A stretch of DNA of 64,000 nt, taken from Trypanosoma brucei. Its lineage: Eukaryota. The stretch spans positions 544,001-608,000 of the forward strand of contig CH464491.1 of the NCBI GenBank assembly GCA_000002445.1. The letters run 5' to 3'. This document shows, piece after piece, positions 9,976 through 29,288 of this stretch. Position 1 is the stretch's first letter, and the number at the start of each line of letters is the position of its first letter. The notes below the pieces were generated by a model. It searched no databases. It was not told the origin of the DNA and saw only the letters and a list, made by a program, of their open reading frames with translations. A program made the position numbers and the translations under genes.

Positions 9976-11529
9976 ATGAGCAGCGCGGTAGATTCCCTGC
10001 TTGTACGCCTCAAGATTCCGGACCTAATCCCAAAGTTTAGGGAGATGAACGTTGATCGCATCATCAGCCTGCGCAAACTAAGTGAGGAGGAGCTTCGGAC
10101 TGCCGTTCCCGATGATGACCAGCGAAACCGAATAATCGAAGCCATTAAGAACCGTGGGAGTAGTGAGAAGAGGACACAGGCCCCGGCTGCAAGCATAAAT
10201 CCACCTCGTTCTACGGATGATGGAGGTCGCGGTGGCATGTCATACCCTCGTGGAGCACCCCGCGGTGGTGGTCCAGTGCGAGGACGAGGTCGCGGCGGGA
10301 CTGGCAGCGCAGGCGAGGGTGGATTTCACGGTAGTGGCAGCAATAACGCTAACATGTTTCCTTCTCGCCAGCGAGTGTGCAACCACTTTCTTAATGGTGA
10401 CTGCAGGTACGGTGACTCCTGCCGTTATAGCCACAACAAGGCACTGTGCCAGGAGGCGGCGGAAAGTGTGCCTCGACGCAACCACGATGCGACATCGTTG
10501 TCTGAGGATTTCAGTGAAACGTGTATTATTCCTACACACCGCATAAAGTATCTACTTGCGAACAGGGCTGATCGCCTTCGGAGTATACACAGCAAGAATC
10601 GCACACACAACAAGTCATTTCAACACATTGACCCCACCATCGAAAAATTCGAGCTCGTAATTTACGGGGCCGACCAGCAATCTGTTCAGGAGAGCAAGAA
10701 AATGATTCTTGCTTGTATTGGTGTGACACGTGAGGAGGAGCAGAAGAATCGTGTGCAGTACACAATGAACGAGTTGAGCAGTAATCAACGCGCGGCTAAA
10801 TTTTTGGCAGCATGCAATATGAAGAACGAGGGGACTGTTCGTGAACTGTCGGAGGCATCACTGAGGAATATCATTTCGTTCTTCCGCTTTGAGAAGCAGC
10901 AGGATATACGTCACTTTTGGGTGAACACCAACAGCGAACACAGTAAGCTGGATATCATCGCCAACATAGTTGCCCAGCTACAGGGAGTACAAGCCATCAT
11001 GTTCTGTGACCAGAAGCGTGTTGTGGATATGAGCAAAGTGGCATCTAAAATCACTCGCTATTTCAACGGTGTCTCCCCCCTGTTTCTCCACCGTGCCATC
11101 CCGAAGGAGGAGCGCATGAAGATGCTCCAAACTTTCAAAGACGGTAAACCTAATGAAAATGGTATTCGAGAACGTCTGCTTGTTACTAATGAAGACTATG
11201 CCAAACTGGCTCGGAAAACAATTGTTCCGTATGTTAATCTTGTCATTAACTACTCAGTCCCACGCTCTGAAGAATACTACCTACTTCAATCTCTTGTGGC
11301 GGGGCGCAGTGACACGGTAGGAGTTTCCATTGTGTGTGTTTTCCCGCACGAGCAGTCCCTATTTCAAGAATTGCAGCGGAACATCCCGTTTGAAGAGCTT
11401 GAGGAGGAAGGGAATTTCAAGGATGCCGCGGTGAAGCTGGTGTACGACACTGTGGACGAACCATTAACAGGTGAGGACGCCGACCCCCCAAGCAACTGGC
11501 ATGAGCAACTGAAGCCCAAGACCCTGTGA
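9976..11529 (+). CDS. ZC3H41: CCCH zinc-finger / RGG-box protein with orphan DEAD-box-helicase C-terminal domain (ZC3H41-like)
   Basis: RGG/RG repeat block (GGRGGMSYPRGAPRGGGPVRGRGRGG) and a CCCH finger CNHFLNGDCRYGDSCRYSH. The C-terminal region (IMFCDQKRVV...RLLVTNEDYAKLARKTIVPYVNLVINYSVPRSEEYYLL) matches the helicase-C (HELICc) motif set. No Walker A/DEAD N-domain is present. Confidence 0.8.
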   Translation: MSSAVDSLLVRLKIPDLIPKFREMNVDRIISLRKLSEEELRTAVPDDDQRNRIIEAIKNRGSSEKRTQAPAASINPPRSTDDGGRGGMSYPRGAPRGGGPVRGRGRGGTGSAGEGGFHGSGSNNANMFPSRQRVCNHFLNGDCRYGDSCRYSHNKALCQEAAESVPRRNHDATSLSEDFSETCIIPTHRIKYLLANRADRLRSIHSKNRTHNKSFQHIDPTIEKFELVIYGADQQSVQESKKMILACIGVTREEEQKNRVQYTMNELSSNQRAAKFLAACNMKNEGTVRELSEASLRNIISFFRFEKQQDIRHFWVNTNSEHSKLDIIANIVAQLQGVQAIMFCDQKRVVDMSKVASKITRYFNGVSPLFLHRAIPKEERMKMLQTFKDGKPNENGIRERLLVTNEDYAKLARKTIVPYVNLVINYSVPRSEEYYLLQSLVAGRSDTVGVSIVCVFPHEQSLFQELQRNIPFEELEEEGNFKDAAVKLVYDTVDEPLTGEDADPPSNWHEQLKPKTL

Positions 11530-12187
11530 AAAGAGTGACGTCGTATGGTCTCTTCTAATCGCAGTTGCCATTTCGTTCTGTCCCAATTGTCCACACCATG
11601 CACTCACCTCCTCTAACTTTAATGCGTGGGTTTCACCCCCTTCTGGGTGACTACGCGGTTGTTGCCACTCCAAAGAGAAAAAAGAGAAGAATAAAAAAGT
11701 GTCTGCATCTTTCTTTCGTGTGTCTTCTGCTTCGGTTCGATAGCCAATCTCATTTTGACAGTCCTCCAGAACACTTGGTTCTGCCGAGTTTGTGAAGTGG
11801 TGATGATGGCTTCGGAGACGTGTGGCAAGGGGAAATGGAGGGAGACATGTGGTATCTTTTCTTCTTTTTGAGTAACCCCTCTTTCAGTTATTTTCCCTTA
11901 CGCATTGACGGTGCTCCTTCTAGCGATGGGGATGTTCTGCCGTGCCGTGTATATCGGGGCACTGTAGAGGAGGGCTGGGTGGCGATTTTGTTGAAGAACG
12001 TTTTATGATTGTGGGGAGGTGTGCTTGTTTACGCGTGTGTGCAGTGGGGGAAACGGAAAGGAAGGGAAATGCTTAGAGCCTCCACCAGGGACATTCAGCC
12101 TCTTTATTATTTACTATAACCACAGAAACAAGGGAGTTACGATAAAATCAACGCGGAGAAAAAATTTATATTGGTGTATCTGCACAC

Positions 12188-12211
12188 ATATATATATATA
12201 TATATATATAT
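12188..12211. repeat. (TA)n microsatellite
   Basis: atatatatatatatatatatatat within the ORF-free gap. Confidence 0.9.
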
Positions 12212-13588
12212 GCACCCTGAAAAGAATGAAAGAAAATTAATTAAATAGCAAGAAGGAAGGAATGAAGGTCATCACTGTCGTATAATTGTTTATACGTGGG
12301 TGCGAGGGGCGCTTCAGGGGAAGGAAGGGAAGAAAAATACACGAACATGTGAGACGGTAGTTGACGCAATAAGGCAAGAAGGTGAAGCACATTGGAAACT
12401 ACAGCGAGAGGTCATGCGGCTGGTGCTCGTATATACGGGACGGGGAAGGGAAAGAAGTGCGTATGTTTCCTTAGGTGTCGTGCCATGGAAACTTGTGGAG
12501 CAGAAGGAAAGAAGTATAAGGGAGGGGGGAGGAACTGTTATCAAGCGTAACGAAAGGATTATCGGAGGTAACTGAAGGTATGAGGTAGATTGAAGCCCAC
12601 AAACGAGCTTACTGAGCAGAGAGGAATCAAGTGGAGTAGGAAAGGAAGACGGACATGTATTATTCAGATAAATCCGAGGGGCTCGGTGTGGGATGCGTTG
12701 TGCTGGGACGAGCAAGAGATTTAGGTGGCTCGAACTTAGTGTTGACAAGCGAAGGCAGCACGTAATCTCGTGCGTGTGTGTGTTATGCGGTACAGGGGGG
12801 AAGGCATGTATAGGAAAACTCTCTAGTCCACTTGAAGAGGAGACGGTTAACAGAGTACGAGGGTGTTCCGCAGATGGTGGTGGCAGCAATACCCGAAAAA
12901 ACTTTACACGTATGAATCTGCCGCGGCTGGTGTCTTTGGGGAATTGAACACACGTCTCCTTCGTGTTCTCTGCCACTCATTCATCTATGCAGGCACGGGT
13001 AATCGGGGGGAAGGTGTGCTTCGCTCTGCAAGCCGTGATTTTTTCTTCCACTTCTTGCTAATTACTTCTTTCATTGCTGTTTTCGTTGTTTTAAGCCCGA
13101 CATTTCCTCCCTCCTGGATCCGAAGAGAAAAAAAAATTCCCCAGTAAATGCGGGTCCGAGCAGCGGAGCTTCCTGCCTTCCCTGTGAGTAAATGGCGAGG
13201 TGGTCGTACACGCGGAGATGGAACTAGAAAGTGGGTGTGACGAGAAAGGGAATGTTATAGCGGGATGCTGTGAGTTTTACATGCGCAAGGAAATGAGCTG
13301 AATGACGACCTTGCGAATCAGCAAACAGAAACGGAAGGCAGCGAGTGAGGATTGAAGTGAACTCCTGTTTGGCTGTTGTTTGCGTGTGGTTAATGTACGA
13401 GGGCCCCTTCCTTTTTTTTTAAACATCTGTTGAGGGTTCCGCTGCTGTTGCCGATTGCTTTTCCTTTCTTTGCCTCCAGCTCACCACTTCCGAGGCAGTT
13501 CTTTTGGTGTCAGACCCTTCCCGCTCAGTGGCCCCATCTCCGTAGCTCACTGCAGTACTCGTTTGCACGCGTTGCTGCGGTTGATCTC

Positions 13589-13603
13589 ATATATATATAT
13601 ATA
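13589..13603. repeat. (AT)n microsatellite
   Basis: atatatatatatata. Confidence 0.85.
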
Positions 13604-13840
13604 CTTTTTAAAACCTTTTTTGTATTCCCTACTATTTCTTTCGCCTTCTGGGCCCCACAAGGAGTACATGCGCCGCCGGGGTAACGAGCTCAAGTAACCA
13701 AAAGCAACACACCAGGGAACGAAGGTGTATGCGGGAGGGGACGCCTTGTCGGTGTGACCCTCCCCACAGTTCCCCTTTCTTTTGTGATGTCTTTCCACTT
13801 GCCTTTGGTGCTCTTGATGGGAGATTGGAAAGTACCTAAA

Positions 13841-13927
13841 GTCGCTCTTCTCTCTTTTGTGAATGATCTGTCTTTACTTTTCTCACATACGTATTTTTTT
13901 TTACGTGGCCTTTTGGCATTTATTGTG
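13841..13927 (+). promoter_or_regulatory. Polypyrimidine tract (trans-splicing / polyadenylation signal) upstream of ArgRS
   Basis: An ~85 nt C/T-rich run ending ~165 nt upstream of the ATG at 14094. This is the typical kinetoplastid SL-addition signal. Confidence 0.6.
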
Positions 13928-14093
13928 TGAGCGGGTGCCAAGTGAAGAGCAATCTTTCTCGGAACCAATCACCGTCATTGTCATCGAAGCCTGCTGAGCG
14001 TGTAAACAATATCTAAAGGAAGAGGGATATCAGACTACTAAGGTTAACTTTTTGTACAAGTGAGGACCGCCCTGCGGCAGTAAGGTAGTTGCC

Positions 14094-16617: not shown

Positions 16618-16813
16618 TTAATGATTTTCCACGATTTAATCTTCCAGAAGCTGCTGATGATACGGAGGCTCGTGAGTTGTGAGCGATCTTAGTGTCATAA
16701 CATGGATTGCGTGTATATCTGTGCGTTGAAGAGATCTGTATCATTTTATTGGACATTAGGTCTTTTTTACTCTTGTCTACACGGTCTTATTTTTATTTTG
16801 AAGTGTTTCACAC

Positions 16814-18466
16814 ATGGCGCAGAGCTGGTTCAAGCGACATCCTCTTGGTATCTATCCGCGTGGTAATGCGAAGAATTTAGATGAGTTGGTCTCCCCGAGG
16901 TTCGGTATTCTCTCAACCCTCCAGTTTGCCAGCAAGGGTCGTGCTGGTAAATGTTGTATTCTTGGATCACAACCAGCAGAAGAGGCGTTTGTTGACGTGA
17001 TGCTCCACCTTCTTTCATTCGTCGCTGTGGATGATATGTGCAGGTTATCGGCTGTATGCACGGGGTGGTATTGCTTTATTCATGCATCAGATGCGTTCAA
17101 ACAGGCCCATGGGTTGCTTTCACCTACGTATACGTGCTTCGAAGGCAGCTGGAAGGAAACAGCCATTCGTCGCTTTATCAAATTACGCTCCAAGCAAAGG
17201 TTAAATACGGCAAAGCGGATGCGTCTGGAGGGTGGTACACCTGGGGTTGGGGAAACTGTGAACTTGTCCCATCGTCCGGTGATGGTGAAGCGCGCCTTTT
17301 ACAATGATCAGTTGTTTCAGGCATGGATGTGCACCATTCTTCCCTGCCACTACCATCTCCGACAATCAAGTATTGCCGGCACCGCAACTGCAAATCGGCA
17401 GCCAAGTGTATTGTCGGCTCGGGGTCGATATCGTAGTCCACTCAAGGAAGTTCCGCGGTGCAGCGGCTTGTCAGTAGACGAGTTCCGCACTCGATTCGAG
17501 GAGACTAATTTACCGGTTATTATAGCAGACGTGGCCACTGAATGGCCTATTTACAAAATATTGCAGGAGAAGTTTGAAAACCTTGCTGTAATGCAGAAAA
17601 AGCTCTTTCGCCCCGGCACGCGTCCTGACGTCCCAATGTGCTGCGAACACACAACCATGAGTGTCGCTGATTATGTTCGGTACGCTCGGGACCAGACCGA
17701 CGAGCGTCCTATCTACCTCTTTGACTCAGAGTTTGGTACTTTTATGGATGTAGAGTCGCTGTACACTGTTCCCGAGTATTTTAGCCGTGATGATTTTTTC
17801 AAGGTTCTTGGTGGTGCGCGGCCCAAGTACCGTTGGATAATTGCCGGACCACGCCGTGGTGGAAGCAGTTTTCATGTGGATCCCAACTATACCAGCGCTT
17901 GGAATGCTAACTTGACAGGGCTAAAGCGGTGGATTCTGCTTCCACCTGGTCACACCCCCGCAGGGGTGTTCCCCAGTGAAGACATGTCGGAGGTTGTAAC
18001 CCCCGTTTCTTTGACGGAGTGGTTGCTGAATCATTACGATGCCACAGTGGAGAAGTGGCGTGACGTTGCGTACGAGTGCGTATGTGGACCAGGGGATATT
18101 ATGTTCATTCCTTGTGGATGGTGGCACTTTGTTATTAACCTGGAGGACTCGGTTGCAATAACACAAAATTATGTGTCAAAGTGCAACCTCTCGAGTGTAC
18201 TGAAGTTTCTCTCTGTCATGAAGTCTTCTATCAGCGGGATTGATGAGGATGTGGACAATTGCGACACGAGCCGAATGGTAGAGACGCGCCGCGCTAACTT
18301 CGCTGAAGAATTTGCCGCGGCGATGCACTTGTCGTACCCCGAGTTGATGCAGACTGTTGCTGGCGAGGCTAAACGTGAGGCAGAGGAACGACATGAGAAA
18401 AAGAAGATGCGAGCTGCTCTTCCGTTGTTGGATGTTGGTAGCAACGGCTTTGCGTTCAGCTTCTGA
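16814..18466 (+). CDS. F-box / JmjC-domain protein (JMJD6-like 2-oxoglutarate/Fe(II) oxygenase)
   Basis: N-terminal F-box-like motif MLHLLSFVAVDDMCRLSAVCTGWY. The JmjC core HVDPNYTSAWNANLTGLKRWILLPPGH ... GDIMFIPCGWWHFVINLEDSVAITQNY closely matches JMJD6 ([20 protein letters not shown] ... [20 protein letters not shown]). Confidence 0.85.
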   Translation: MAQSWFKRHPLGIYPRGNAKNLDELVSPRFGILSTLQFASKGRAGKCCILGSQPAEEAFVDVMLHLLSFVAVDDMCRLSAVCTGWYCFIHASDAFKQAHGLLSPTYTCFEGSWKETAIRRFIKLRSKQRLNTAKRMRLEGGTPGVGETVNLSHRPVMVKRAFYNDQLFQAWMCTILPCHYHLRQSSIAGTATANRQPSVLSARGRYRSPLKEVPRCSGLSVDEFRTRFEETNLPVIIADVATEWPIYKILQEKFENLAVMQKKLFRPGTRPDVPMCCEHTTMSVADYVRYARDQTDERPIYLFDSEFGTFMDVESLYTVPEYFSRDDFFKVLGGARPKYRWIIAGPRRGGSSFHVDPNYTSAWNANLTGLKRWILLPPGHTPAGVFPSEDMSEVVTPVSLTEWLLNHYDATVEKWRDVAYECVCGPGDIMFIPCGWWHFVINLEDSVAITQNYVSKCNLSSVLKFLSVMKSSISGIDEDVDNCDTSRMVETRRANFAEEFAAAMHLSYPELMQTVAGEAKREAEERHEKKKMRAALPLLDVGSNGFAFSF

Positions 18467-18719
18467 TCAGTCTTACTTCACGTTTTTTTAATCTATGTTA
18501 AACAGTTAAGAGTACTAAGGTCATGATGTGTGAGGGAGGTTGGTGGGTATATACGTACCGTGGGTAGGGTGTGTTACCTCTGAACTTGTGTACGGTGTGT
18601 GAAAGCACCTTGATTTTTTTTTCTACTTTGAGTTTCGCCCCCTTTTTTTATTATGCGTGCATATTTATCGTTTATCACACGGATCTGGGGGTTGCCATAG
18701 GCGTGAATTTCCCTTGTAC

Positions 18720-20027
18720 ATGGGTCTTTTAACGAGGTATTATGAGAAACTGGCCGAGCAAGGTCGTTTGGAGCAACTGATCGTTTTTGGGATGTACGAC
18801 GAACGGGTGTATGAGGTTATCGACCGTCATAAACTGGCGGGGAGTATTACTGCGTTGCTTCCATCGTCTCAAGCAGCCGCGTTTCTCTCTCGAGGGATGG
18901 CATACGACTGTGTCAATGAAGAGGTGCTGAGAAATTTCATTAAGATATGCATGATGTTGTCCACCTACAAGACTGTCGAAGAGGGGGCGAGTCTTGCGGA
19001 GCTTATAGGGAGTTGTGGTGTGCCTGAACACTATCGAATGAGTTTGTTTAACTTTAGTGAGACGTACAGACACATGATATTATCCAAGTCGTACTTTCCT
19101 CAACGGGCCGTGTTGAAGCTTCTGTCGTACATTTTTTGTGATGATGTACTTACTGACGCGGTGGCGCAGTTGCAGTACAAATCAGATATATTGAACCACG
19201 TGAATAAAGTTTATGTCGATACCCCAGATTTCATCTCGTGGCGCTTCTCTGTGCGGGTTTTATCGTTGGCAGGGGGCTACAACGAGGACCGTAGTGATGT
19301 GGAATACACTGACGCATTGACCCGTTTGGTCACTCGTACTATCCCCGAGTTCATTGTCTACTTCGGTGCAACATTTATGTACGCTATGATACGCCACTAC
19401 CCCCGGCGTGTGCGTGGAATCACACCGCGATGGCTTGCCAGGCAGCGCGCCGTCTTTTCGGCCGCGTACTGCGCCTTTCTTGGGGTGTTTGTCAACTCCA
19501 TCTTAGAGTATCGTGTTCACAAACATCGTATGCTGTATGAGCTACGCAAAAGCCAAGAATGCCGTCGCCGCCGTGGCGCTGAGAAACGCGGCGTCGATTA
19601 CACTCCCAATACGTATTTTGACAGTCTTGAGGGTGTCACTCGCCACATTTACTCCATGCAGTTGACAACGTATGGTGCGTCCGCGTCGATGTTACTCCTT
19701 TCACTCGTTCCACTAGTGCCTGTGAAGTTCCCCAAGTGGATGGGTGACGTGGCATGGCGTCACCCATTTGTTCCACGACTGTTTCCGGCCATCCTTGGGA
19801 TGCACGCTGCATCGCGTTGCATGGTTCCGTTCGTGTTTGCCCCTTTCACTATTATGACAGCTCTGCGTTTCAATGGGTGGTCCACCACATTGTATGACCG
19901 TTACGTGGAGTTGCGAATGCGGCTCTGGCACAGGAAGGTGGAAGCTGTTTTTGACACATCAACAGATGTTACCGATCTTGACGTTACAAGGGAGTCGAAA
20001 AAGAAGGGAGGGCTGGCCGGAAACTGA
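18720..20027 (+). CDS. Hypothetical membrane protein
   Basis: The ORF carries several hydrophobic segments. Track start 18657 is GTG; the first ATG is at 18720, downstream of polypyrimidine tract 18612-18650. Confidence 0.5.
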   Translation: MGLLTRYYEKLAEQGRLEQLIVFGMYDERVYEVIDRHKLAGSITALLPSSQAAAFLSRGMAYDCVNEEVLRNFIKICMMLSTYKTVEEGASLAELIGSCGVPEHYRMSLFNFSETYRHMILSKSYFPQRAVLKLLSYIFCDDVLTDAVAQLQYKSDILNHVNKVYVDTPDFISWRFSVRVLSLAGGYNEDRSDVEYTDALTRLVTRTIPEFIVYFGATFMYAMIRHYPRRVRGITPRWLARQRAVFSAAYCAFLGVFVNSILEYRVHKHRMLYELRKSQECRRRRGAEKRGVDYTPNTYFDSLEGVTRHIYSMQLTTYGASASMLLLSLVPLVPVKFPKWMGDVAWRHPFVPRLFPAILGMHAASRCMVPFVFAPFTIMTALRFNGWSTTLYDRYVELRMRLWHRKVEAVFDTSTDVTDLDVTRESKKKGGLAGN

Positions 20028-20469
20028 TCCTGCTTGCCTTAAGGCGCAAACCCCCTGGTCGTTGTGTGCGTGCGCGTCTTTGTGTGAGTTGTAGGGATGT
20101 ATGAGACGAAAAGTAAAAAAGAATAAGAGGGGCTGAGGTGGGTGTGACAGTTTGTGTGTGTGTTACTATATTTACATGTGGTTTAATTCTATCGGAATTT
20201 TGCGTGCCGCCGGGGCATATCTGTTCTTTGAAGGACTTTCGGCATTTGTTGCGTGCAACGGTACCGCTGTTCACGTGGGGATTTTCTTTCTACTGCACCT
20301 CGTTGTGGAGAAGTGAAAGCGAGCACTGTGTGTGTGTGTGTGCATTAACCTTCACTCTTACTCGCTATTTTACATTATTTGTGCTCATTTGAATACATTT
20401 TTTTTTTTCGCTTCAACCGAGCGACAAGCATCACTCACTCCGCGAGGAAAGTTTTGCAGCGCGTGGATA

Positions 20470-21246
20470 ATGACTAGTGAGTGCGTTACCGTAAAGGTGA
20501 AACTAGGCGGTGCAGCATTGCCTGCCCACGATTTGATGCAACTGGAAAGGAGGCTTATCGGAGCGCGTTCCCTTATGCAAGCGACGGAGAAAACTTTGAA
20601 GGAGACGGTGGTAGTGGTGTCACCAAACCTCAGAAAGGATGGTGATGAACGCAGGGACCACATTCTTAATGATGGAATGGTGAGTAAGCATACGCAACTT
20701 TCTTGGTATATTGTCGAAGACGTTCTTGCTGTGTACTACAGGCTCTCAACTCTCATAGAGGAGGAAGAGCGACAAGCGCGAATCCGTGTTGAACGATTTC
20801 ACTCAAGCACTATCAATCAAATGCGTCGAAGACACAATGCAGACCACCTCAGTAGCGCTAAGTGTGTCTATGAGCGATCCTGCGTTGAAGAGGATGCCCA
20901 CTGGGCTTTGAAGCTTGTGGCGCAGGAACATTCAGATTACCTCTTCTCCATCAAGATATTAGAAGAGGATGAGCGTCAGGACATTGCACGCCGTGTGGGG
21001 CTACCGATGCAAAATTCAACCCCGTTGCTGGGCTGGTCGCGCACACCTAACACTGTGTGGCAGCAGCCAGAACTCGCACCCTGGTGGGATCATTTAGAGG
21101 GGCCAGCTGGTTATTTCTGGGGCGTATCACCGAGTGGCGGCGTGGAAATGCCTCAGTGGAGTCATGTACACTGGGGAGACAATCCAGCCAGTGGGGGTTT
21201 CCAGTGTGTACCTGGTGAGTGGTGCCACCGCAGTAATCTTCAGTAG
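20470..21246 (+). CDS. Hypothetical protein
   Basis: Track start 20332 is GTG inside a (GT)n/poly-T tract. The first ATG at 20470 follows a T11 polypyrimidine tract. Confidence 0.45.
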   Translation: MTSECVTVKVKLGGAALPAHDLMQLERRLIGARSLMQATEKTLKETVVVVSPNLRKDGDERRDHILNDGMVSKHTQLSWYIVEDVLAVYYRLSTLIEEEERQARIRVERFHSSTINQMRRRHNADHLSSAKCVYERSCVEEDAHWALKLVAQEHSDYLFSIKILEEDERQDIARRVGLPMQNSTPLLGWSRTPNTVWQQPELAPWWDHLEGPAGYFWGVSPSGGVEMPQWSHVHWGDNPASGGFQCVPGEWCHRSNLQ

Positions 21247-21898
21247 TGGTTGTTCCTTAGCTGCTCACTTTTATTCGTTTACCCAACCCCTTGTTATTTT
21301 TTTTTGGTTACATCACGCATTGTAAACATGCACATATATATGTATGTGCTTGTGTGTGGTTTTCGAATTGCCACCACACACTCGCTGTACCTGGAATAGC
21401 TGCTGTGCGGAGAGTTACAGGGTTTCCAGTCTTACCGAGAGGAACGGGACGGGCGCTCGACAGTAGGAGCGGATATTGGAAAAGAATTTATATACCTACT
21501 CGAGGCTTGAAGTTGAAAAGTAATCTTGTTTTTTCTTTTTCGTCGTACTGTGGTTGAGCCCACCGGGGTCAGGGGAGCGCGATTTCTGGCATTCTCAAAA
21601 TATATCTGTTCTCACACAAATGCTTGCAGCCATTTGAACTCGCTTAAAGGGTCAACCGAGAGGTTCTCTACGCGGCCTTCGGGTGTGGTTCAGGTGAGTG
21701 GGCATGCGTGCGACGAGGACCCCTTCTGCTGCATGCCTTGTCATTTGCCTCTTTCATCTGGGTTTATATAAAAAGTTGGTAGCAAGCGTAGGGCAGTTGC
21801 GTGTTTTTCTAACGTCGCGATAGCAACATCGCGATTTGTGTGCAGCCAGAGAAACGTGGTTTCCGCCCTCTGGACTCACTTCAGTTCGCGGGCGGTCG

Positions 21899-23605
21899 AT
21901 GTCTTCATCTTTCTTGGTTCCTTTCACACTGAATGTGCGGCTATCAGTTTCATGCAGCAGCCTGCACGATGGTTTGGGTGGTCTTTTGTCGTTATTACGG
22001 GCCGATGACCACAGTGTGAAGGCAGGTACAATGTCGCGTGACCCATGTGCCGATGGGGAGAGACAGGATGCATTACGTCATCTTCTCAGCAGGGATGCCA
22101 GCGTCCTCTCGGAAATTGACTTCCGCGGCGACATCCCCGCCATTGAGGATTTCGCGTCCACTATCCGCAGTGTCGACAGCTTCGAGAAGGGGTATATTTC
22201 CCTTATTTTTCGTGAATATTGCAAGCGGATGGGTATAATTAGTGAGTGGAAAGCGTCCCTACAGGCTGCCCAAAGGGAGAGTTCGTTTCCCATATCGGGT
22301 GCGTTGCTGGACACAGTGATTGCCGAGGAGGCGAGTGCACGAGCGGAACTCCACACGTCCCGCGAGCATTTCGTGGAGTGGGCTAAGGGGGTGGCCCCAC
22401 GGTGGTTGGAGACGGCTCGCAACATGGGAGCCTCGAAGAAAACAGAGGATGGGGCTGCTGAGAGGGCACAAAATCAATTGGAAACTGTGATTGCTCAGCA
22501 GTTTGGCTTCAGTGGCAACGACGTGGTGAACAGCGGCCCCCCGTCGTCTCCCAGGGTGACAGGGGCCAACAGTGACGCGTTGCGCCGACAGGCGATTGCG
22601 ATGATTGAGCAAGAGCAGTCGCTGAGGAGACAAGAGGCGAAGACAAGGGTGGCGAGTCTACTTGAGCAGGAGGAACAGTTGCGTTGTCAAATGGAGGAAA
22701 GGCGCCAGAAGCGGGAAACCGAGGAAAAGCGGCACCACCAGGCCAATATGGAGGCATTCTGCCGACAGCTTAGGCAGGAGGAGGAGTCATTCCGTCAACG
22801 CATGGAGGCACGCGAGAGCGAGCGACTCCAGTTGCTTGAACACATTGAAGCAGAGGAGCAGTGGCTTTCTCAACGACTTGCTGATCGGGAGAGGCAACGT
22901 GCGCTGGAAATAGAGGCCAAGGAGAGAGCCGAGCGCGAGCAGCGAGAGTTGTACCGCGAGCACGTGGAGGCTGAGGAGGAGTTGCTTCGCAACCGTCTAC
23001 AACAGTATGAAGCGTCTCGAAAGATGGAGGCTGAAAAGGCACGACAGAAGGAAAAAGAGGATCGTGAGGAACTCTACGAGCATGTGCTAGCCGAGGAGCA
23101 ATTAATTCGACAACGACTTGAACAGCGGGAGAAAGAGGCTGAGCGGAGGGCTAGGTACGAGCTGTACCATGCAGGAAGAGCAGACGCAGGACTAGGCAAC
23201 ACAGATTCGACCTTGCCGGAGCATTCCTTCGGTACGCAGCAGCTCGTAGGATACCAAGCAATTAACAATTCATATACGGGTGTAGGATTGTGTGGGGAAA
23301 GGCAGGCCTTCACATCGCCCCAAGGGCATCCCCATTCTTATCATCAGCAGGTGCACTCTCTGCCCCATGTTCAGCATTACCAGCAACAGTATCTCCCACA
23401 GGTGATCACATCCCCAGCTCAACCCAGTTGCTATCCCGTTGCGCCAGCCGTCCCACAGCCCGCCACCGTTTACTCTCCCCTTACACAGTCAGTTGTTACA
23501 CCACCTTACAATCACTACGTGTCTTATCACCCCCAGGGAGAGCTGCGATCTCCGCAGCCACCCCAAATGTTTCCTGGGAATCACCCATATTACTTGAACC
23601 GTTGA
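21899..23605 (+). CDS. Coiled-coil repeat protein with Q/P/Y-rich low-complexity C-terminus
   Basis: Track start is TTG; the first ATG is at 21899 (another at 22032). Central ~40-aa degenerate repeats (E.EEQ/ELL..RL..RE...) are followed by a QQ/PQ/Y-rich tail. Confidence 0.6.
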   Translation: MSSSFLVPFTLNVRLSVSCSSLHDGLGGLLSLLRADDHSVKAGTMSRDPCADGERQDALRHLLSRDASVLSEIDFRGDIPAIEDFASTIRSVDSFEKGYISLIFREYCKRMGIISEWKASLQAAQRESSFPISGALLDTVIAEEASARAELHTSREHFVEWAKGVAPRWLETARNMGASKKTEDGAAERAQNQLETVIAQQFGFSGNDVVNSGPPSSPRVTGANSDALRRQAIAMIEQEQSLRRQEAKTRVASLLEQEEQLRCQMEERRQKRETEEKRHHQANMEAFCRQLRQEEESFRQRMEARESERLQLLEHIEAEEQWLSQRLADRERQRALEIEAKERAEREQRELYREHVEAEEELLRNRLQQYEASRKMEAEKARQKEKEDREELYEHVLAEEQLIRQRLEQREKEAERRARYELYHAGRADAGLGNTDSTLPEHSFGTQQLVGYQAINNSYTGVGLCGERQAFTSPQGHPHSYHQQVHSLPHVQHYQQQYLPQVITSPAQPSCYPVAPAVPQPATVYSPLTQSVVTPPYNHYVSYHPQGELRSPQPPQMFPGNHPYYLNR

Positions 23606-27081: not shown

Positions 27082-28056
27082 ATGCCATCCGTTTCCCAGG
27101 AGAAACGTGACTATGAGGATCGCCTCAACGGCTGCCTCACGAAGTACAGCCGTGTGCTCTTCTGCCTGATGGACAATGTTCGCTCGCAGCAGGTGCACGG
27201 TGTACGCCGTGATCTCCGCGGTAAGGGTGAGCTGGTGATGGGAAAGAAGACGTTGCAGAAGAAGATCGTGGAGAAGCGCGCTGAGGGCAACAAGGCCACA
27301 GATGCTGATAAGCTGTTCCACCAGGTTTGCACCGATAAGCAGCTTCTGTGTGGCAACACATCGATGATATTCACGAACAGCGAAGTGTCTGATATCACCA
27401 GCGTGTTGGACAGCCACCGTGTTCAGGCGCCTGCGCGTGTTGGTGCCATTGCCCCATGTGATGTTATTGTGCCCGCCGGTAACACGGGTATGGAGCCGAA
27501 GGCAACGGCGTTCTTCCAAGCGTTGAACATCGCGACGAAGATTTCCAAGGGTACTGTGGAGATTGTGAGCGACAAGAAGGTACTGAGCACTGGTGACAAG
27601 GTGGATAACTCCACGGCGACGCTGCTGCAGAAGCTCGACATCTCACCTTTCTATTACCAGGTCGAGGTGCAATCCGTGTGGGACCGCGGTGTGCTGTTTA
27701 CCCGTGAAGATCTCTCCGTCACCGATGCGGTTGTGGAGAAGTACCTCCTCGAAGGAATCAGCAACATCAGCGCTATGTCACTGGGTGCTGGTATCCCAAC
27801 TGCCGCTACACTGCCGCACATGATTGTCGACGCCTTCAAGACTCTTCTCGGCGCCTCCGTTGCCACGAATTACGAGTTTGAGGAATACGACGGAAAGAAC
27901 CTGCGCACAGCCGCCTTGGAGGGTAAACTCGGTGGTGGCGAAGCTGCTGCCCCCGCCGCTGCCGCTGCTGCCGCCGCCCCCGCCGCCGCTCCCGCTGCCG
28001 CCGCAGCTGAGGAGGAGGAGGATGATGATGACTTTGGCATGGGTGCTCTCTTCTAG
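27082..28056 (+). CDS. RPLP0: 60S acidic ribosomal protein P0 (copy 1)
   Basis: 324 aa with the uL10/P0 N-terminal domain, an Ala/Pro-rich hinge and the conserved P-protein C-terminus [15 protein letters not shown]. Stop codon is TAG. Confidence 0.95.
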
Positions 28057-28313: not shown

Positions 28314-29288
28314 ATGCCATCCGTTTCCCAGGAGAAACGTGACTATGAGGATCGCCTCAACGGCTGCCTCACGAAGTACAGCCGTGTGCTCTTCTGCCTG
28401 ATGGACAATGTTCGCTCGCAGCAGGTGCACGGTGTACGCCGTGATCTCCGCGGTAAGGGTGAGCTGGTGATGGGAAAGAAGACGTTGCAGAAGAAGATCG
28501 TGGAGAAGCGCGCTGAGGGCAACAAGGCCACAGATGCTGATAAGCTGTTCCACCAGGTTTGCACCGATAAGCAGCTTCTGTGTGGCAACACATCGATGAT
28601 ATTCACGAACAGCGAAGTGTCTGATATCACCAGCGTGTTGGACAGCCACCGTGTTCAGGCGCCTGCGCGTGTTGGTGCCATTGCCCCATGTGATGTTATT
28701 GTGCCCGCCGGTAACACGGGTATGGAGCCGAAGGCAACGGCGTTCTTCCAAGCGTTGAACATCGCGACGAAGATTTCCAAGGGTACTGTGGAGATTGTGA
28801 GCGACAAGAAGGTACTGAGCACTGGTGACAAGGTGGATAACTCCACGGCGACGCTGCTGCAGAAGCTCGACATCTCACCTTTCTATTACCAGGTCGAGGT
28901 GCAATCCGTGTGGGACCGCGGTGTGCTGTTTACCCGTGAAGATCTCTCCGTCACCGATGCGGTTGTGGAGAAGTACCTCCTCGAAGGAATCAGCAACATC
29001 AGCGCTATGTCACTGGGTGCTGGTATCCCAACTGCCGCTACACTGCCGCACATGATTGTCGACGCCTTCAAGACTCTTCTCGGCGCCTCCGTTGCCACGA
29101 ATTACGAGTTTGAGGAATACGACGGAAAGAACCTGCGCACAGCCGCCTTGGAGGGTAAACTCGGTGGTGGCGAAGCTGCTGCCCCCGCCGCTGCCGCTGC
29201 TGCCGCCGCCCCCGCCGCCGCTCCCGCTGCCGCCGCAGCTGAGGAGGAGGAGGATGATGATGACTTTGGCATGGGTGCTCTCTTCTAA
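28314..29288 (+). CDS. RPLP0: 60S acidic ribosomal protein P0 (copy 2, identical CDS)
   Basis: Its translation is identical to copy 1. All overlapping spurious ORFs in the other frames are also identical, which implies nucleotide identity. Stop codon is TAA. Confidence 0.95.

What the first reader, a model, noticed from the sequence alone, without database searches (positions are those of the whole stretch)
16814..18466. F-box fused to a JMJD6-type JmjC oxygenase
The JmjC core is strikingly JMJD6-like (HxD...H iron triad; WWHFVINLEDSVAITQNY). The N-terminus carries an F-box-like motif (LLHLLSFVAVDDMCRLSAVCTGWY). Metazoan JMJD6 has no F-box. An F-box N-terminal to a JMJD6-like JmjC is mainly known from plants and protists. 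It suggests an SCF-associated hydroxylase that couples substrate hydroxylation to ubiquitination, or is itself regulated through SKP1.
Basis: partly seen in the sequence, partly recalled or inferred. Interest (0 to 1): 0.55.

Follow-up and report, generated by a model that had tools for sequence, protein, structure and literature searches.

The report
Trypanosome JMJ2: F-box plus JMJD6-like oxygenase
The gene is real and encodes Trypanosoma brucei JMJ2 (Tb927.11.2000), a nuclear JMJD6-like iron/2-oxoglutarate oxygenase with a divergent N-terminal F-box, but it belongs to a protist/plant enzyme family that is already described and is known to bind Skp1 in other organisms, so it is a correct but not a new observation.

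Summary
The ORF at 16814-18466 (+) is real: 550 aa and 100% identical to T. brucei TREU927 Q386V9 = Tb927.11.2000 = JMJ2. The JMJD6-type catalytic domain is unambiguous. Cupin_8 and JmjC pass the Pfam cut-offs, JMJD6 is the best PDB match by sequence (E 1e-35) and by fold (E 4e-15), and the Fe(II) triad H354/D356/H438 and the 2OG-binding N364/K371 are conserved.

The F-box is real but divergent. In T. brucei it scores below both Pfam cut-offs and has F59-V60 in place of the canonical Leu-Pro. Several lines of evidence still support it:
- Six kinetoplastid orthologues pass the PF12937 cut-off at the same position.
- A kinetoplastid-only profile finds FBXL5 and beta-TrCP F-boxes first in the PDB.
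- The syntenic Leishmania infantum orthologue sits in a published Skp1 pull-down with 10 peptides, where it was not recognised as an F-box protein.

The architecture is already published: the JcdH/FBXO13/JMJ22 group of Boland et al. 2022 includes the T. cruzi orthologue, and Q386V9 itself has been listed as a putative F-box ligase. Substrate, enzymatic activity and Skp1 binding have not been tested in T. brucei.

The parts
16761..16803 (+). Polypyrimidine tract followed by AG: the probable trans-splice acceptor for this gene
   Evidence: Read directly from the sequence. Function is inferred from general knowledge of trypanosome mRNA processing and was not tested.
16814..18466 (+). Complete coding sequence of T. 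brucei JMJ2 (Tb927.11.2000, UniProt Q386V9), 550 aa plus stop codon
   Evidence: ORF listing. 100% identity to P0001 = XP_828284.1/Q386V9. Gene name and ID from the Staneva et al. 2021 supplement.
16820..16921 (+). Conserved N-terminal motif (aa 3-36: QSWFKRHPLGIYPRGN...RFGILSTL). It is shared with plant, chytrid and brown-alga homologues and includes the pre-F-box element G31-x-L33..L36.
   Evidence: P15, G17 and N18 are nearly invariant and G31 is invariant across 29 and 79 sequences. pLDDT is 88-93 for aa 11-30 in the full-length model.
16922..16978 (+). Variable, low-confidence insertion (aa 37-55) present in kinetoplastids. It lies between the pre-F-box element and F-box helix 1.
   Evidence: Alignment gap relative to the plant proteins. 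Majority fraction is 0.34 for aa 32-55. pLDDT is about 52 for aa 41-50.
16979..17119 (+). Divergent F-box: helices 56-67, 72-79 and 83-91 plus following helix 94-102. The Pfam match covers aa 61-90, and F59-V60 occupy the canonical Leu-Pro position.
   Evidence: Pfam is sub-threshold here but above the cut-off in six orthologues. A kinetoplastid-only profile hits FBXL5, beta-TrCP, FBXL2 and FBXL3 F-boxes in register. The fold matches Skp1-bound F-box proteins. Conservation is 0.66 against 0.34-0.41 in the flanking linkers.
17150..17212 (+). Long linker helix (aa 113-133) that begins at the invariant W113 (the GSWK motif)
   Evidence: W113 is invariant in 79 sequences. Helix H113-133 has pLDDT above 90.
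17294..17353 (+). Conserved segment FYNDQLFQAWMCTILPCHYH (aa 161-180) preceding the catalytic domain. It probably corresponds to the 'H1' homology domain of the F-box JMJD6-like groups.
   Evidence: D165, F168 and C173 are invariant. Majority fraction is 0.78. The assignment to 'H1' of PMC9485057 is inferred, because the defining figure could not be read.
17480..18175 (+). JMJD6-type JmjC/Cupin_8 double-stranded beta-helix catalytic domain (aa 223-454)
   Evidence: Pfam Cupin_8 54.2 bits and JmjC 42.5 bits. JMJD6 E 1e-35 by sequence. Foldseek finds JMJD6 at E 3.7e-15.
17873..17881 (+). H354-V355-D356: the HxD part of the Fe(II) facial triad (= JMJD6 H187/D189)
   Evidence: HMMER alignment to 3ld8. 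Invariant in A1.
17903..17926 (+). N364 ... K371: 2-oxoglutarate-binding residues (= JMJD6 N197 and K204)
   Evidence: Alignment to JMJD6. Invariant in 79 sequences. The role of these JMJD6 residues is recalled from the JMJD6 crystal-structure literature and was not re-read here.
18125..18127 (+). H438: the distal histidine of the Fe(II) triad (= JMJD6 H273)
   Evidence: Alignment to JMJD6. Invariant in 79 sequences.
18266..18409 (+). Two long C-terminal helices (aa 485-532), the second being basic and acidic rich
   Evidence: AF2 model helices H485-507 and H509-532, pLDDT 89-98.
18446..18463 (+). C-terminal GFAFSF motif (aa 545-550), shared by kinetoplastid, plant, chytrid and brown-alga homologues. 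Its function is unknown.
   Evidence: F546 is invariant and F548/F550 are nearly invariant in 79 sequences. pLDDT is low, about 56.

Best explanation
The ORF encodes TbJMJ2, a nuclear Fe(II)/2-oxoglutarate-dependent protein oxygenase. It belongs to the F-box-bearing branch of the JMJD6 clade, the JcdH / Toxoplasma FBXO13 / Arabidopsis JMJ22 group. Its C-terminal two-thirds form a catalytically competent JmjC domain. By analogy with JMJD6, this domain most likely hydroxylates lysine side chains of nuclear proteins. Its N-terminus carries a divergent F-box that docks the enzyme on Skp1. The most likely role of that docking is to keep the enzyme soluble and stable and to set its abundance through the SCF/proteasome system, rather than to make it a classical substrate receptor.

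Shown here or in cited work: the domain architecture, conservation of the catalytic residues, the F-box fold, co-purification of the Leishmania orthologue with Skp1, nuclear localisation, and an RNAi fitness cost.

Inferred: enzymatic activity, substrate class, direct F-box-Skp1 contact in T. brucei, and the regulatory (rather than receptor) role of Skp1.
For: Catalytic domain:
- Pfam Cupin_8 and JmjC score above their cut-offs.
- JMJD6 is the best solved relative by sequence (E 1e-35, against 8e-7 for JMJD5) and by fold (E 3.7e-15, against 3.6e-8).
- H354/D356/H438, W341, S351 (Thr in JMJD6), N364, K371, T450 and N452 align with JMJD6 H187/D189/H273, W174, T184, N197, K204, T285 and N287. All are invariant or nearly invariant in 79 homologues.

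F-box:
- PF12937 passes its cut-off in T. conorhini, T. grayi, T. cruzi, Bodo saltans and two environmental kinetoplastids at the homologous position.
- 24 of 29 family members hit PF12937 at E <= 0.01.
- A kinetoplastid-only N-terminal profile ranks FBXL5 (E 0.0098), beta-TrCP, FBXL2 and FBXL3 first in the PDB, in register with their F-boxes.
- The AF2 model (pLDDT 85.8, pTM 0.86) has helices 56-67, 72-79 and 83-91.
- The helices are conserved (0.66) compared with the flanking linkers (0.34-0.41).

Skp1 link:
- LINF_270019900 (A0A6L0XHL7) appears among 'Real targets LinfSkp1' with 10 peptides.
- It is the orthologue: same 90% cluster as P0026, 49% identity end to end, and conserved CCCH/helicase-ArgRS-JmjC gene order.
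- Dictyostelium JcdI binds Skp1 through its F-box and needs Skp1 for solubility. Toxoplasma FBXO13 co-immunoprecipitates SKP1.

Family membership: the T. cruzi orthologue XP_821123.1 is listed as 'Fbox,1,3,4' among the JcdH-group rows of PMC9485057.

Biology: JMJ2 is predominantly nuclear and scores 0-0-0-0 in RIT-seq, meaning fitness loss in all four screens.
Against: - In T. brucei itself both F-box models fall below the Pfam gathering scores (20.4 < 24.3; 16.6 < 20.5). The canonical Leu-Pro is F59-V60. A roughly 20-residue insertion of low confidence precedes helix 1.
- The fold-search E-values for the small fragment are not individually significant (best 0.24).
- The Leishmania result is a co-purification that the authors did not validate or interpret, and it could be indirect. 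The protein is absent from their Cul1 list.
- No T. brucei Skp1 interaction data were found.
- No enzymatic activity or substrate is known for any member of the JcdH group. Only 2OG turnover by Dictyostelium JcdI has been shown.
- Whether kinetoplastids have the Skp1 hydroxylation/glycosylation pathway that modulates this interaction elsewhere was not established (one search found nothing).
Confidence: 0.72

Rival explanations
1. Canonical SCF substrate receptor. The JmjC domain recognises nuclear substrates, and perhaps hydroxylates them. The F-box then delivers them to Skp1-Cul1-Rbx1 for ubiquitination, so that hydroxylation and degradation are coupled.
For: The F-box and the Skp1 link are as in the main explanation. 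Cul1 and Rbx1 are in the same Leishmania Skp1 pull-down. From general knowledge, metazoan KDM2A/B combine JmjC and F-box domains and assemble with SKP1; their F-box fragments appear among the fold hits.
Against: The Leishmania orthologue is not in the Cul1 interactome, although only two F-box proteins were. In Toxoplasma the FBXO13 immunoprecipitate contained SKP1 and one WD40 protein as the only high-confidence partners. Those authors explicitly propose that it is not a canonical receptor. In Dictyostelium the O2-sensitising effect of JcdI required catalysis but not the F-box.
Confidence: 0.15
2. Vestigial F-box. In T. brucei the N-terminal helices are an inherited structural remnant that no longer binds Skp1, and the protein acts as a free-standing JMJD6-like hydroxylase.
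For: Pfam scores are sub-threshold, the Leu-Pro is missing, the terminal Trp of the F-box is replaced by Phe in trypanosomatids, and there is an insertion before helix 1.
Against: The Leishmania orthologue has even lower F-box scores (18 bits), yet it was recovered with Skp1 at 10 peptides. That is more than three validated F-box proteins in the same experiment. The helices are under clear constraint: C76, L78 and S79 are invariant, and F69, W85 and Y86 nearly so, across kinetoplastids.
Confidence: 0.08
3. Histone arginine demethylase, as has been claimed for Arabidopsis JMJ20/JMJ22. In this reading the protein acts on chromatin, and the F-box is incidental.
For: The closest relatives outside kinetoplastids are annotated 'arginine-specific demethylase JMJ22'. 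JMJ2 is nuclear.
Against: Database names are not tests. The literature read here describes the arginine demethylase activity of JMJD6-type enzymes as controversial. In the main text of the T. brucei chromatin-factor survey, JMJ2 is mentioned only for its localisation and not among factors enriched at transcription start or termination regions.
Confidence: 0.05

Closest known systems
JcdH / Toxoplasma FBXO13 (JMJD6b) / Arabidopsis JMJ22 (At5g06550) group of F-box JMJD6-like oxygenases (Boland et al. 2022, PMC9485057; PMC11570480)
   Same: - Same order of parts: N-terminal F-box, conserved pre-catalytic segment, JMJD6-type JmjC, and a short C-terminal region without the i1-i5 extension.
- Collinear with plant members from N-terminal motif to C-terminal GFxFxF.
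- The T. cruzi orthologue is already listed in this group.
- Nuclear and fitness-conferring, like Toxoplasma FBXO13.
   Different: - Kinetoplastid members lack the Leu-Pro (or Leu-Ser/Thr) entry immediately before helix 1 and carry a roughly 20-residue variable insertion there.
- Trypanosomatids replace the terminal F-box Trp with Phe.
- The published table lists the T. cruzi protein without the accessory Hh1/Hh2 segments. However, the N-terminal HPYGxxPxGN and C-terminal GFxFxF motifs are shared with plants. Whether these motifs are Hh1/Hh2 could not be verified.
- No Skp1, activity or substrate data exist for T. brucei.
Dictyostelium JcdI / Fbxo13 (JcdI group; includes Arabidopsis JMJ21-like proteins)
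   Same: F-box plus JMJD6-like JmjC. There is experimental proof that such a divergent F-box binds Skp1 directly, and that the enzyme turns over 2OG in an O2-dependent way.
   Different: JcdI-group proteins are much longer (about 120 kDa) and carry C-terminal homology segments i1-i5, which the 550-aa trypanosome protein lacks.
Human JMJD6 (lysyl-5-hydroxylase; PDB 3ld8, 6gdy, 6mev)
   Same: It is the closest solved structure and sequence for the catalytic domain, with identical metal- and 2OG-binding residues.
   Different: JMJD6 has no F-box, and different flanking homology domains (H2/H5 instead of H1/H4, according to PMC9485057). Identity over the aligned fold is only about 26%.
Metazoan KDM2A/KDM2B (FBXL11/FBXL10)
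   Same: Proteins that combine a JmjC oxygenase domain with an F-box and bind SKP1.
   Different: The domain order is the opposite: JmjC is N-terminal, and the F-box plus LRR are C-terminal, with CxxC and PHD domains. They belong to a different JmjC subfamily of histone lysine demethylases. No KDM2 catalytic domain appears among the sequence hits. This is an independent fusion.

Membership tests
F-box proteins (Pfam PF00646 / PF12937; Skp1-binding) | Sequence match to the F-box profile at or above the curated threshold | tested here: inconclusive
   The T. brucei protein scores 20.4 bits (cut-off 24.3) and 16.6 bits (cut-off 20.5), with E 4.5e-4 and 7.8e-3. Six kinetoplastid orthologues reach 25.8-28.9 bits on PF12937, above the cut-off, at the homologous position. 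Leishmaniinae and T. vivax fall below it.
F-box proteins (Pfam PF00646 / PF12937; Skp1-binding) | Conserved Leu-Pro at the entry to helix 1 | tested here: not met
   F59-V60 occupy this position. It is FV/FL in Trypanosoma, YL/FL/FI in Leishmaniinae and EL/EI in Bodo. Every Pfam match starts at profile position 7-10. Plant family members often have L-S/T here as well.
F-box proteins (Pfam PF00646 / PF12937; Skp1-binding) | Three-helix F-box fold | tested here: met
F-box proteins (Pfam PF00646 / PF12937; Skp1-binding) | Physical binding to Skp1 | not testable with these tools
   The evidence is indirect. The syntenic L. infantum orthologue LINF_270019900 is in the published LinfSkp1 interactome with 10 peptides. 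Homologues in Dictyostelium and Toxoplasma bind Skp1. No T. brucei data were found.
JMJD6-type JmjC 2OG oxygenases | JmjC/Cupin_8 double-stranded beta-helix domain above threshold, with JMJD6 as the nearest relative | tested here: met
   Pfam 54.2 and 42.5 bits. JMJD6 E 1e-35, with JMJD5 next at 8e-7. Foldseek gives JMJD6 E 3.7e-15 and TM-score 0.62-0.65 normalised to the target.
JMJD6-type JmjC 2OG oxygenases | HxD...H Fe(II) triad and 2OG-binding Asn/Lys/Thr | tested here: met
   H354/D356/H438, N364 and K371 are conserved. S351 replaces JMJD6 T184, a conservative change.
JMJD6-type JmjC 2OG oxygenases | Fe(II)/2OG/O2-dependent hydroxylase activity on protein lysines | not testable with these tools
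In the F-box branch, only 2OG turnover by Dictyostelium JcdI has been shown.
JcdH / FBXO13 / JMJ22 group (PMC9485057) | N-terminal F-box + H1 + H3/JmjC + H4, without the C-terminal i1-i5 segments of the JcdI group | tested here: met
   Full-length collinearity with plant JMJ22-type proteins. The protein ends about 95 residues after the JmjC domain. The T. cruzi orthologue XP_821123.1 is listed as 'Fbox,1,3,4' among the JcdH-group rows.
KDM2 / JHDM1 (FBXL10/11) | N-terminal JmjC followed by CxxC, PHD, F-box and LRR | tested here: not met
   The domain order is reversed, and Pfam finds no CxxC, PHD or LRR.

The most novel reading that the evidence does not exclude
In kinetoplastids, Skp1-JMJ2 could be a stable, non-degradative nuclear hydroxylase complex in which Skp1 acts as an obligate chaperone subunit. 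Its essential, O2-dependent job would be to hydroxylate RNA-processing factors, by analogy with human JMJD6 acting on splicing factors. That would link oxygen and 2OG availability to trans-splicing or polyadenylation in organisms that regulate genes almost entirely after transcription. One observation is compatible with this reading but does not demonstrate it: the Leishmania Skp1 pull-down that contains the JMJ2 orthologue also contains several RNA-binding and RNA-processing proteins, for example a CPSF5-like protein with 10 peptides.
Probability: 0.15. Interest if true: 0.65.

Novelty: already known. Interest (0 to 1): 0.3.

Why it matters
The gene is a likely essential (RNAi fitness loss in all four screens), nuclear, oxygen-using enzyme of a human and livestock pathogen. 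Its F-box-bearing branch is absent from animals, so it is a plausible selective drug target and a possible oxygen or metabolite sensor.

This analysis adds four things to the literature:
- It shows that the sub-threshold T. brucei F-box is a true homologue.
- It describes how the kinetoplastid F-box departs from the canon: no Leu-Pro, and an insertion before helix 1.
- It shows that the Leishmania orthologue had already been pulled down with Skp1 but was filed as 'nucleic acid binding'. Meanwhile a different JmjC protein (Flp10) was listed as the F-box JmjC protein and was not found in the interactome.
- It shows that the statement in a 2023 review that these F-box ligases are exclusive to Trypanosoma is wrong.

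None of this changes the category of the finding. It is a member of a described family.

Tried and rejected
- **Flp10 as the orthologue.** I first assumed that the Leishmania 'Flp10' JmjC protein (LINF_300017500), which is absent from the Skp1 interactome, was the orthologue. Accession comparison showed it is a different gene. The true orthologue is LINF_270019900.
- **CLD1 as this gene.** I guessed that 'CLD1' of Staneva et al. was this gene. It is JMJ2.
- **Glycosyl transferase annotation.** Several orthologues carry the name 'transferase, transferring glycosyl group'. Pfam finds no such domain. The name is probably inherited from the long Arabidopsis paralogue; that origin is recalled from memory.
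- **KDM2-type architecture.** Rejected on domain order.
- **Gene context as a functional clue.** The neighbours are ArgRS, a CCCH/helicase protein, a kinase and two ribosomal P0 copies. They are unrelated, as expected for a trypanosome polycistron.
- **Literature searches by gene ID.** Searches for the gene ID in main texts, for the ArgRS gene ID, and for the Skp1 PhyA/Gnt1 pathway in kinetoplastids returned nothing useful.
- **RNA genes.** Rfam and tRNA scans of the window found nothing.
- **Skp1 surface on the model.** The prediction tool returns no coordinates, so I could not check whether the Skp1-binding face of the modelled F-box is exposed.
Full report

The window carries an uninterrupted 550-codon ORF at exactly 16814..18466 on the + strand. 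It sits in a run of 25 same-strand ORFs typical of a trypanosomatid polycistron. Its product is 100% identical to a Trypanosoma brucei brucei TREU927 protein (P0001 = XP_828284.1 = UniProt Q386V9). The supplement of Staneva et al. 2021 (PMC8559703) names this protein JMJ2, Tb927.11.2000.

The start codon is supported in two ways. The N-terminal sequence is conserved from residue 2-3 in every kinetoplastid orthologue. A polypyrimidine tract plus AG lies 11-50 nt upstream (the splice-acceptor role is inferred).

The quoted JmjC string is exact. The quoted F-box string has a one-residue slip (MLHLL..., not LLHLL...).

**2. The catalytic domain**

Pfam Cupin_8 (54.2 bits, cut-off 27.4) and JmjC (42.5 bits, cut-off 24) cover aa 223-454. 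Against all PDB sequences, the four best hits are human JMJD6 (E about 1e-35, aa 218-460). JMJD5, FIH, KDM7 and PHF8 follow at 1e-6 or worse.

An AlphaFold2 model built on a 79-sequence alignment is confident (mean pLDDT 85.8, pTM 0.86). Foldseek places JMJD6 first (E 3.7e-15, TM-score 0.62-0.65 on the target) and JMJD5 seven orders of magnitude behind.

Reading the HMMER alignment to 3ld8 gives this residue mapping:

| TbJMJ2 | JMJD6 |
|---|---|
| H354 | H187 |
| D356 | D189 |
| H438 | H273 |
| W341 | W174 |
| S351 | T184 |
| N364 | N197 |
| K371 | K204 |
| T450 | T285 |
| N452 | N287 |

All of these residues are invariant or nearly invariant in 29 and 79 homologues. The roles of N197, K204 and T184 in 2OG binding are recalled from the JMJD6 structure papers and were not re-read here. 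The 'JMJD6-type, catalytically competent' part of the finding is therefore fully confirmed.

**3. The F-box**

On the single T. brucei sequence the evidence is marginal. PF12937 scores 20.4 bits (cut-off 24.3, E 4.5e-4) and PF00646 scores 16.6 bits (cut-off 20.5, E 7.8e-3). Both cover aa 61-90 and only profile positions 7-36. The canonical Leu-Pro is F59-V60.

Five independent lines of evidence overturn that reading:

- **Orthologue scores.** Among kinetoplastid orthologues the same segment passes the PF12937 cut-off in T. conorhini (26.2), T. grayi (26.2), T. cruzi (25.8), Bodo saltans (26.1) and two environmental sequences (28.9, 26.4). T. vivax (23.3) and the Leishmaniinae (15-21) fall below it. 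In a 29-sequence family alignment, 24 members hit PF12937 and 23 hit PF00646 at E <= 0.01.
- **Full-length collinearity.** The protein is collinear from end to end with plant 'F-box protein At5g06550 / JMJ22' proteins. This includes an N-terminal HPYGxxPxGN motif, the F-box helices, GSWK, LFQxWxC, the JmjC domain and a C-terminal GFxFxF motif.
- **Kinetoplastid-only profile.** A profile built only from kinetoplastid N-termini (A2) finds FBXL5 (E 0.0098), beta-TrCP, FBXL2 and FBXL3 as its top PDB hits, aligned in register with their F-boxes.
- **Conservation.** The helices are conserved among kinetoplastids (majority fraction 0.66), while the flanking linkers are not (0.34 and 0.41). C76, L78 and S79 are invariant, and F69, W85 and Y86 nearly so.

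The alignment also suggests how the kinetoplastid F-box departs from the canon. The plant 'GLGxL..L-[PST]-D' entry aligns with R29-F-G31-x-L33..L36. A variable, low-confidence insertion of about 20 residues (aa 37-55) separates this from helix 1. In trypanosomatids the terminal F-box Trp is Phe (inference).

**4. Evidence from elsewhere that the motif binds Skp1**

Boland et al. 2022 (PMC9485057) showed several things about Dictyostelium JcdI/Fbxo13, an F-box plus JMJD6-like protein. It binds Skp1 directly through its divergent F-box, since a VFxxF-to-ARxxA mutation abolishes binding. It needs Skp1 co-expression to be soluble. It also turns over 2OG with physiological O2 dependence. They defined two F-box-bearing groups (JcdI and JcdH) 'conserved across protists and plants'.

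Their supplementary identifier table lists 'Tcruz1, XP_821123.1, Fbox,1,3,4, Trypanosoma cruzi' among the JcdH-group rows. XP_821123.1 (Q4E398) is a member of the T. cruzi orthologue cluster of the present ORF (64% identity over the full length).

Toxoplasma FBXO13, which belongs to the same group, co-immunoprecipitates SKP1. It is nuclear and cytoplasmic and has a strongly negative fitness score. [quoted passage not shown]

The most directly relevant evidence comes from the L. infantum CRL1 study (PMC11285970). [quoted passage not shown] That is more than the validated F-box proteins Flp3, Flp5 and Flp6 (7, 5 and 7 peptides). It was classified as 'nucleic acid binding', however, and is not among the paper's 11 F-box-like proteins.

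That protein is the orthologue of the ORF:
- It is in the same 90% cluster as P0026.
- It is 49% identical end to end.
- The gene order CCCH/helicase - ArgRS - JmjC - two unannotated genes is conserved between L. tarentolae and the window.

The JmjC protein that the paper did list as F-box-like is Flp10 (LINF_300017500). It is a different gene and was not in the interactome. The orthologue is absent from the Cul1 list, but that list contains only two F-box proteins.

**5. What is known about this very gene**

Q386V9 and Q4E398 are named as 'atypical putative F-box ligases' in a 2023 review (PMC11032742). That review follows a 2018 T. cruzi survey which noted F-box E3 ligases with JmjC domains (PMC5976635). 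The review's statement that these proteins are exclusive to Trypanosoma is contradicted.

In Staneva et al. 2021, JMJ2 is predominantly nuclear in bloodstream forms and in the nuclear lumen by TrypTag with either tag. [quoted passage not shown] Neither an interactome for JMJ2 nor TbSKP1 appears in the supplementary text held for that paper.

**6. Mechanism**

*Best-supported reading (confidence about 0.7).* This is a nuclear, probably essential Fe(II)/2OG protein hydroxylase of the JMJD6 clade, docked on Skp1 through a divergent F-box. Skp1 serves mainly to stabilise the enzyme and to control its abundance.

*Shown:* the architecture, conservation of the catalytic residues, the F-box fold, co-purification of the orthologue with Skp1, the localisation, and the fitness cost.

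*Inferred:* enzymatic activity, lysyl specificity, direct binding in T. brucei, and a regulatory rather than receptor role.

*Rivals:*
- A true SCF substrate receptor that couples hydroxylation to ubiquitination (about 0.15).
- A vestigial F-box (about 0.08). This is disfavoured because the Leishmania protein has an even weaker F-box score and still comes down with Skp1.
- A histone arginine demethylase, as claimed for plant JMJ22 (about 0.05).

**7. Novelty and score**

The architecture, the family, its taxonomic spread, its Skp1 binding, and even this specific protein's status as a putative F-box/JmjC protein are already published.
- homology-level validation of a sub-threshold motif;
- a description of the kinetoplastid F-box variant;
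- the overlooked Leishmania Skp1 hit;
- a correction of the 'Trypanosoma-exclusive' claim.

Interest is scored at 0.3. The residual upside is that an essential, animal-absent, oxygen-dependent Skp1-bound hydroxylase in trypanosomes remains without a known substrate.

Noticed in passing
window 27082-28056 and 28314-29288 (+): Two tandem 324-aa ORFs give identical Pfam results (Ribosomal_L10, RL10P_insert, Ribosomal_60s). This is a tandem duplication of the ribosomal stalk protein P0 gene.
   Followed up: partly
window 11530-14093: A stretch of about 2.5 kb between the CCCH/helicase gene and ArgRS has no + strand ORF of 100 aa or more. It holds only short ORFs and a 220-aa GTG ORF on the - strand (12314-12976). 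The syntenic L. tarentolae locus has a similar gene-free gap of about 3.2 kb (L001 1392-4613). It may be long UTRs or an unannotated small gene.
   Followed up: partly
window 16820-16864 and 18446-18463 (aa 3-17 and 545-550 of the ORF): An N-terminal HPxGxxPxGN motif and a C-terminal GFxFxF motif are conserved from kinetoplastids to plants, chytrids and brown algae (P15/G17/N18 and F546/F548/F550). The published table lists the T. cruzi orthologue without the accessory Hh1/Hh2 segments of the JcdH group. Whether these motifs are those segments, and what they do, is unknown.
   Followed up: partly
PMC11285970 S2 Table (external); orthologue of window 16814-18466: The L. infantum Skp1 pull-down that contains the JMJ2 orthologue also contains several RNA-binding or RNA-processing proteins at similar peptide counts, for example a CPSF5-like protein, RRB1 and other RNA-binding proteins. 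These could be indirect partners or candidate hydroxylase substrates.
   Followed up: no
window 18657-20027, 20332-21246, 21836-23605 (+): Three consecutive ORFs downstream of JMJ2 have no Pfam match at E <= 0.001. The first two have counterparts of similar size, also without Pfam hits, at the syntenic Leishmania positions. They look like conserved kinetoplastid proteins of unknown function.
   Followed up: no
window 9976-11529 (+): A 517-aa protein combines a CCCH zinc finger with a Helicase_C domain. It is conserved in synteny with Leishmania, where a weak KH_1 hit is also recorded.
   Followed up: no
orthologue annotations (P0003, P0004, P0005, P0008): Several Trypanosoma orthologues are named 'transferase, transferring glycosyl group' in NCBI, although no glycosyltransferase domain is detectable. 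This is probably an annotation propagated from an Arabidopsis paralogue.
   Followed up: partly
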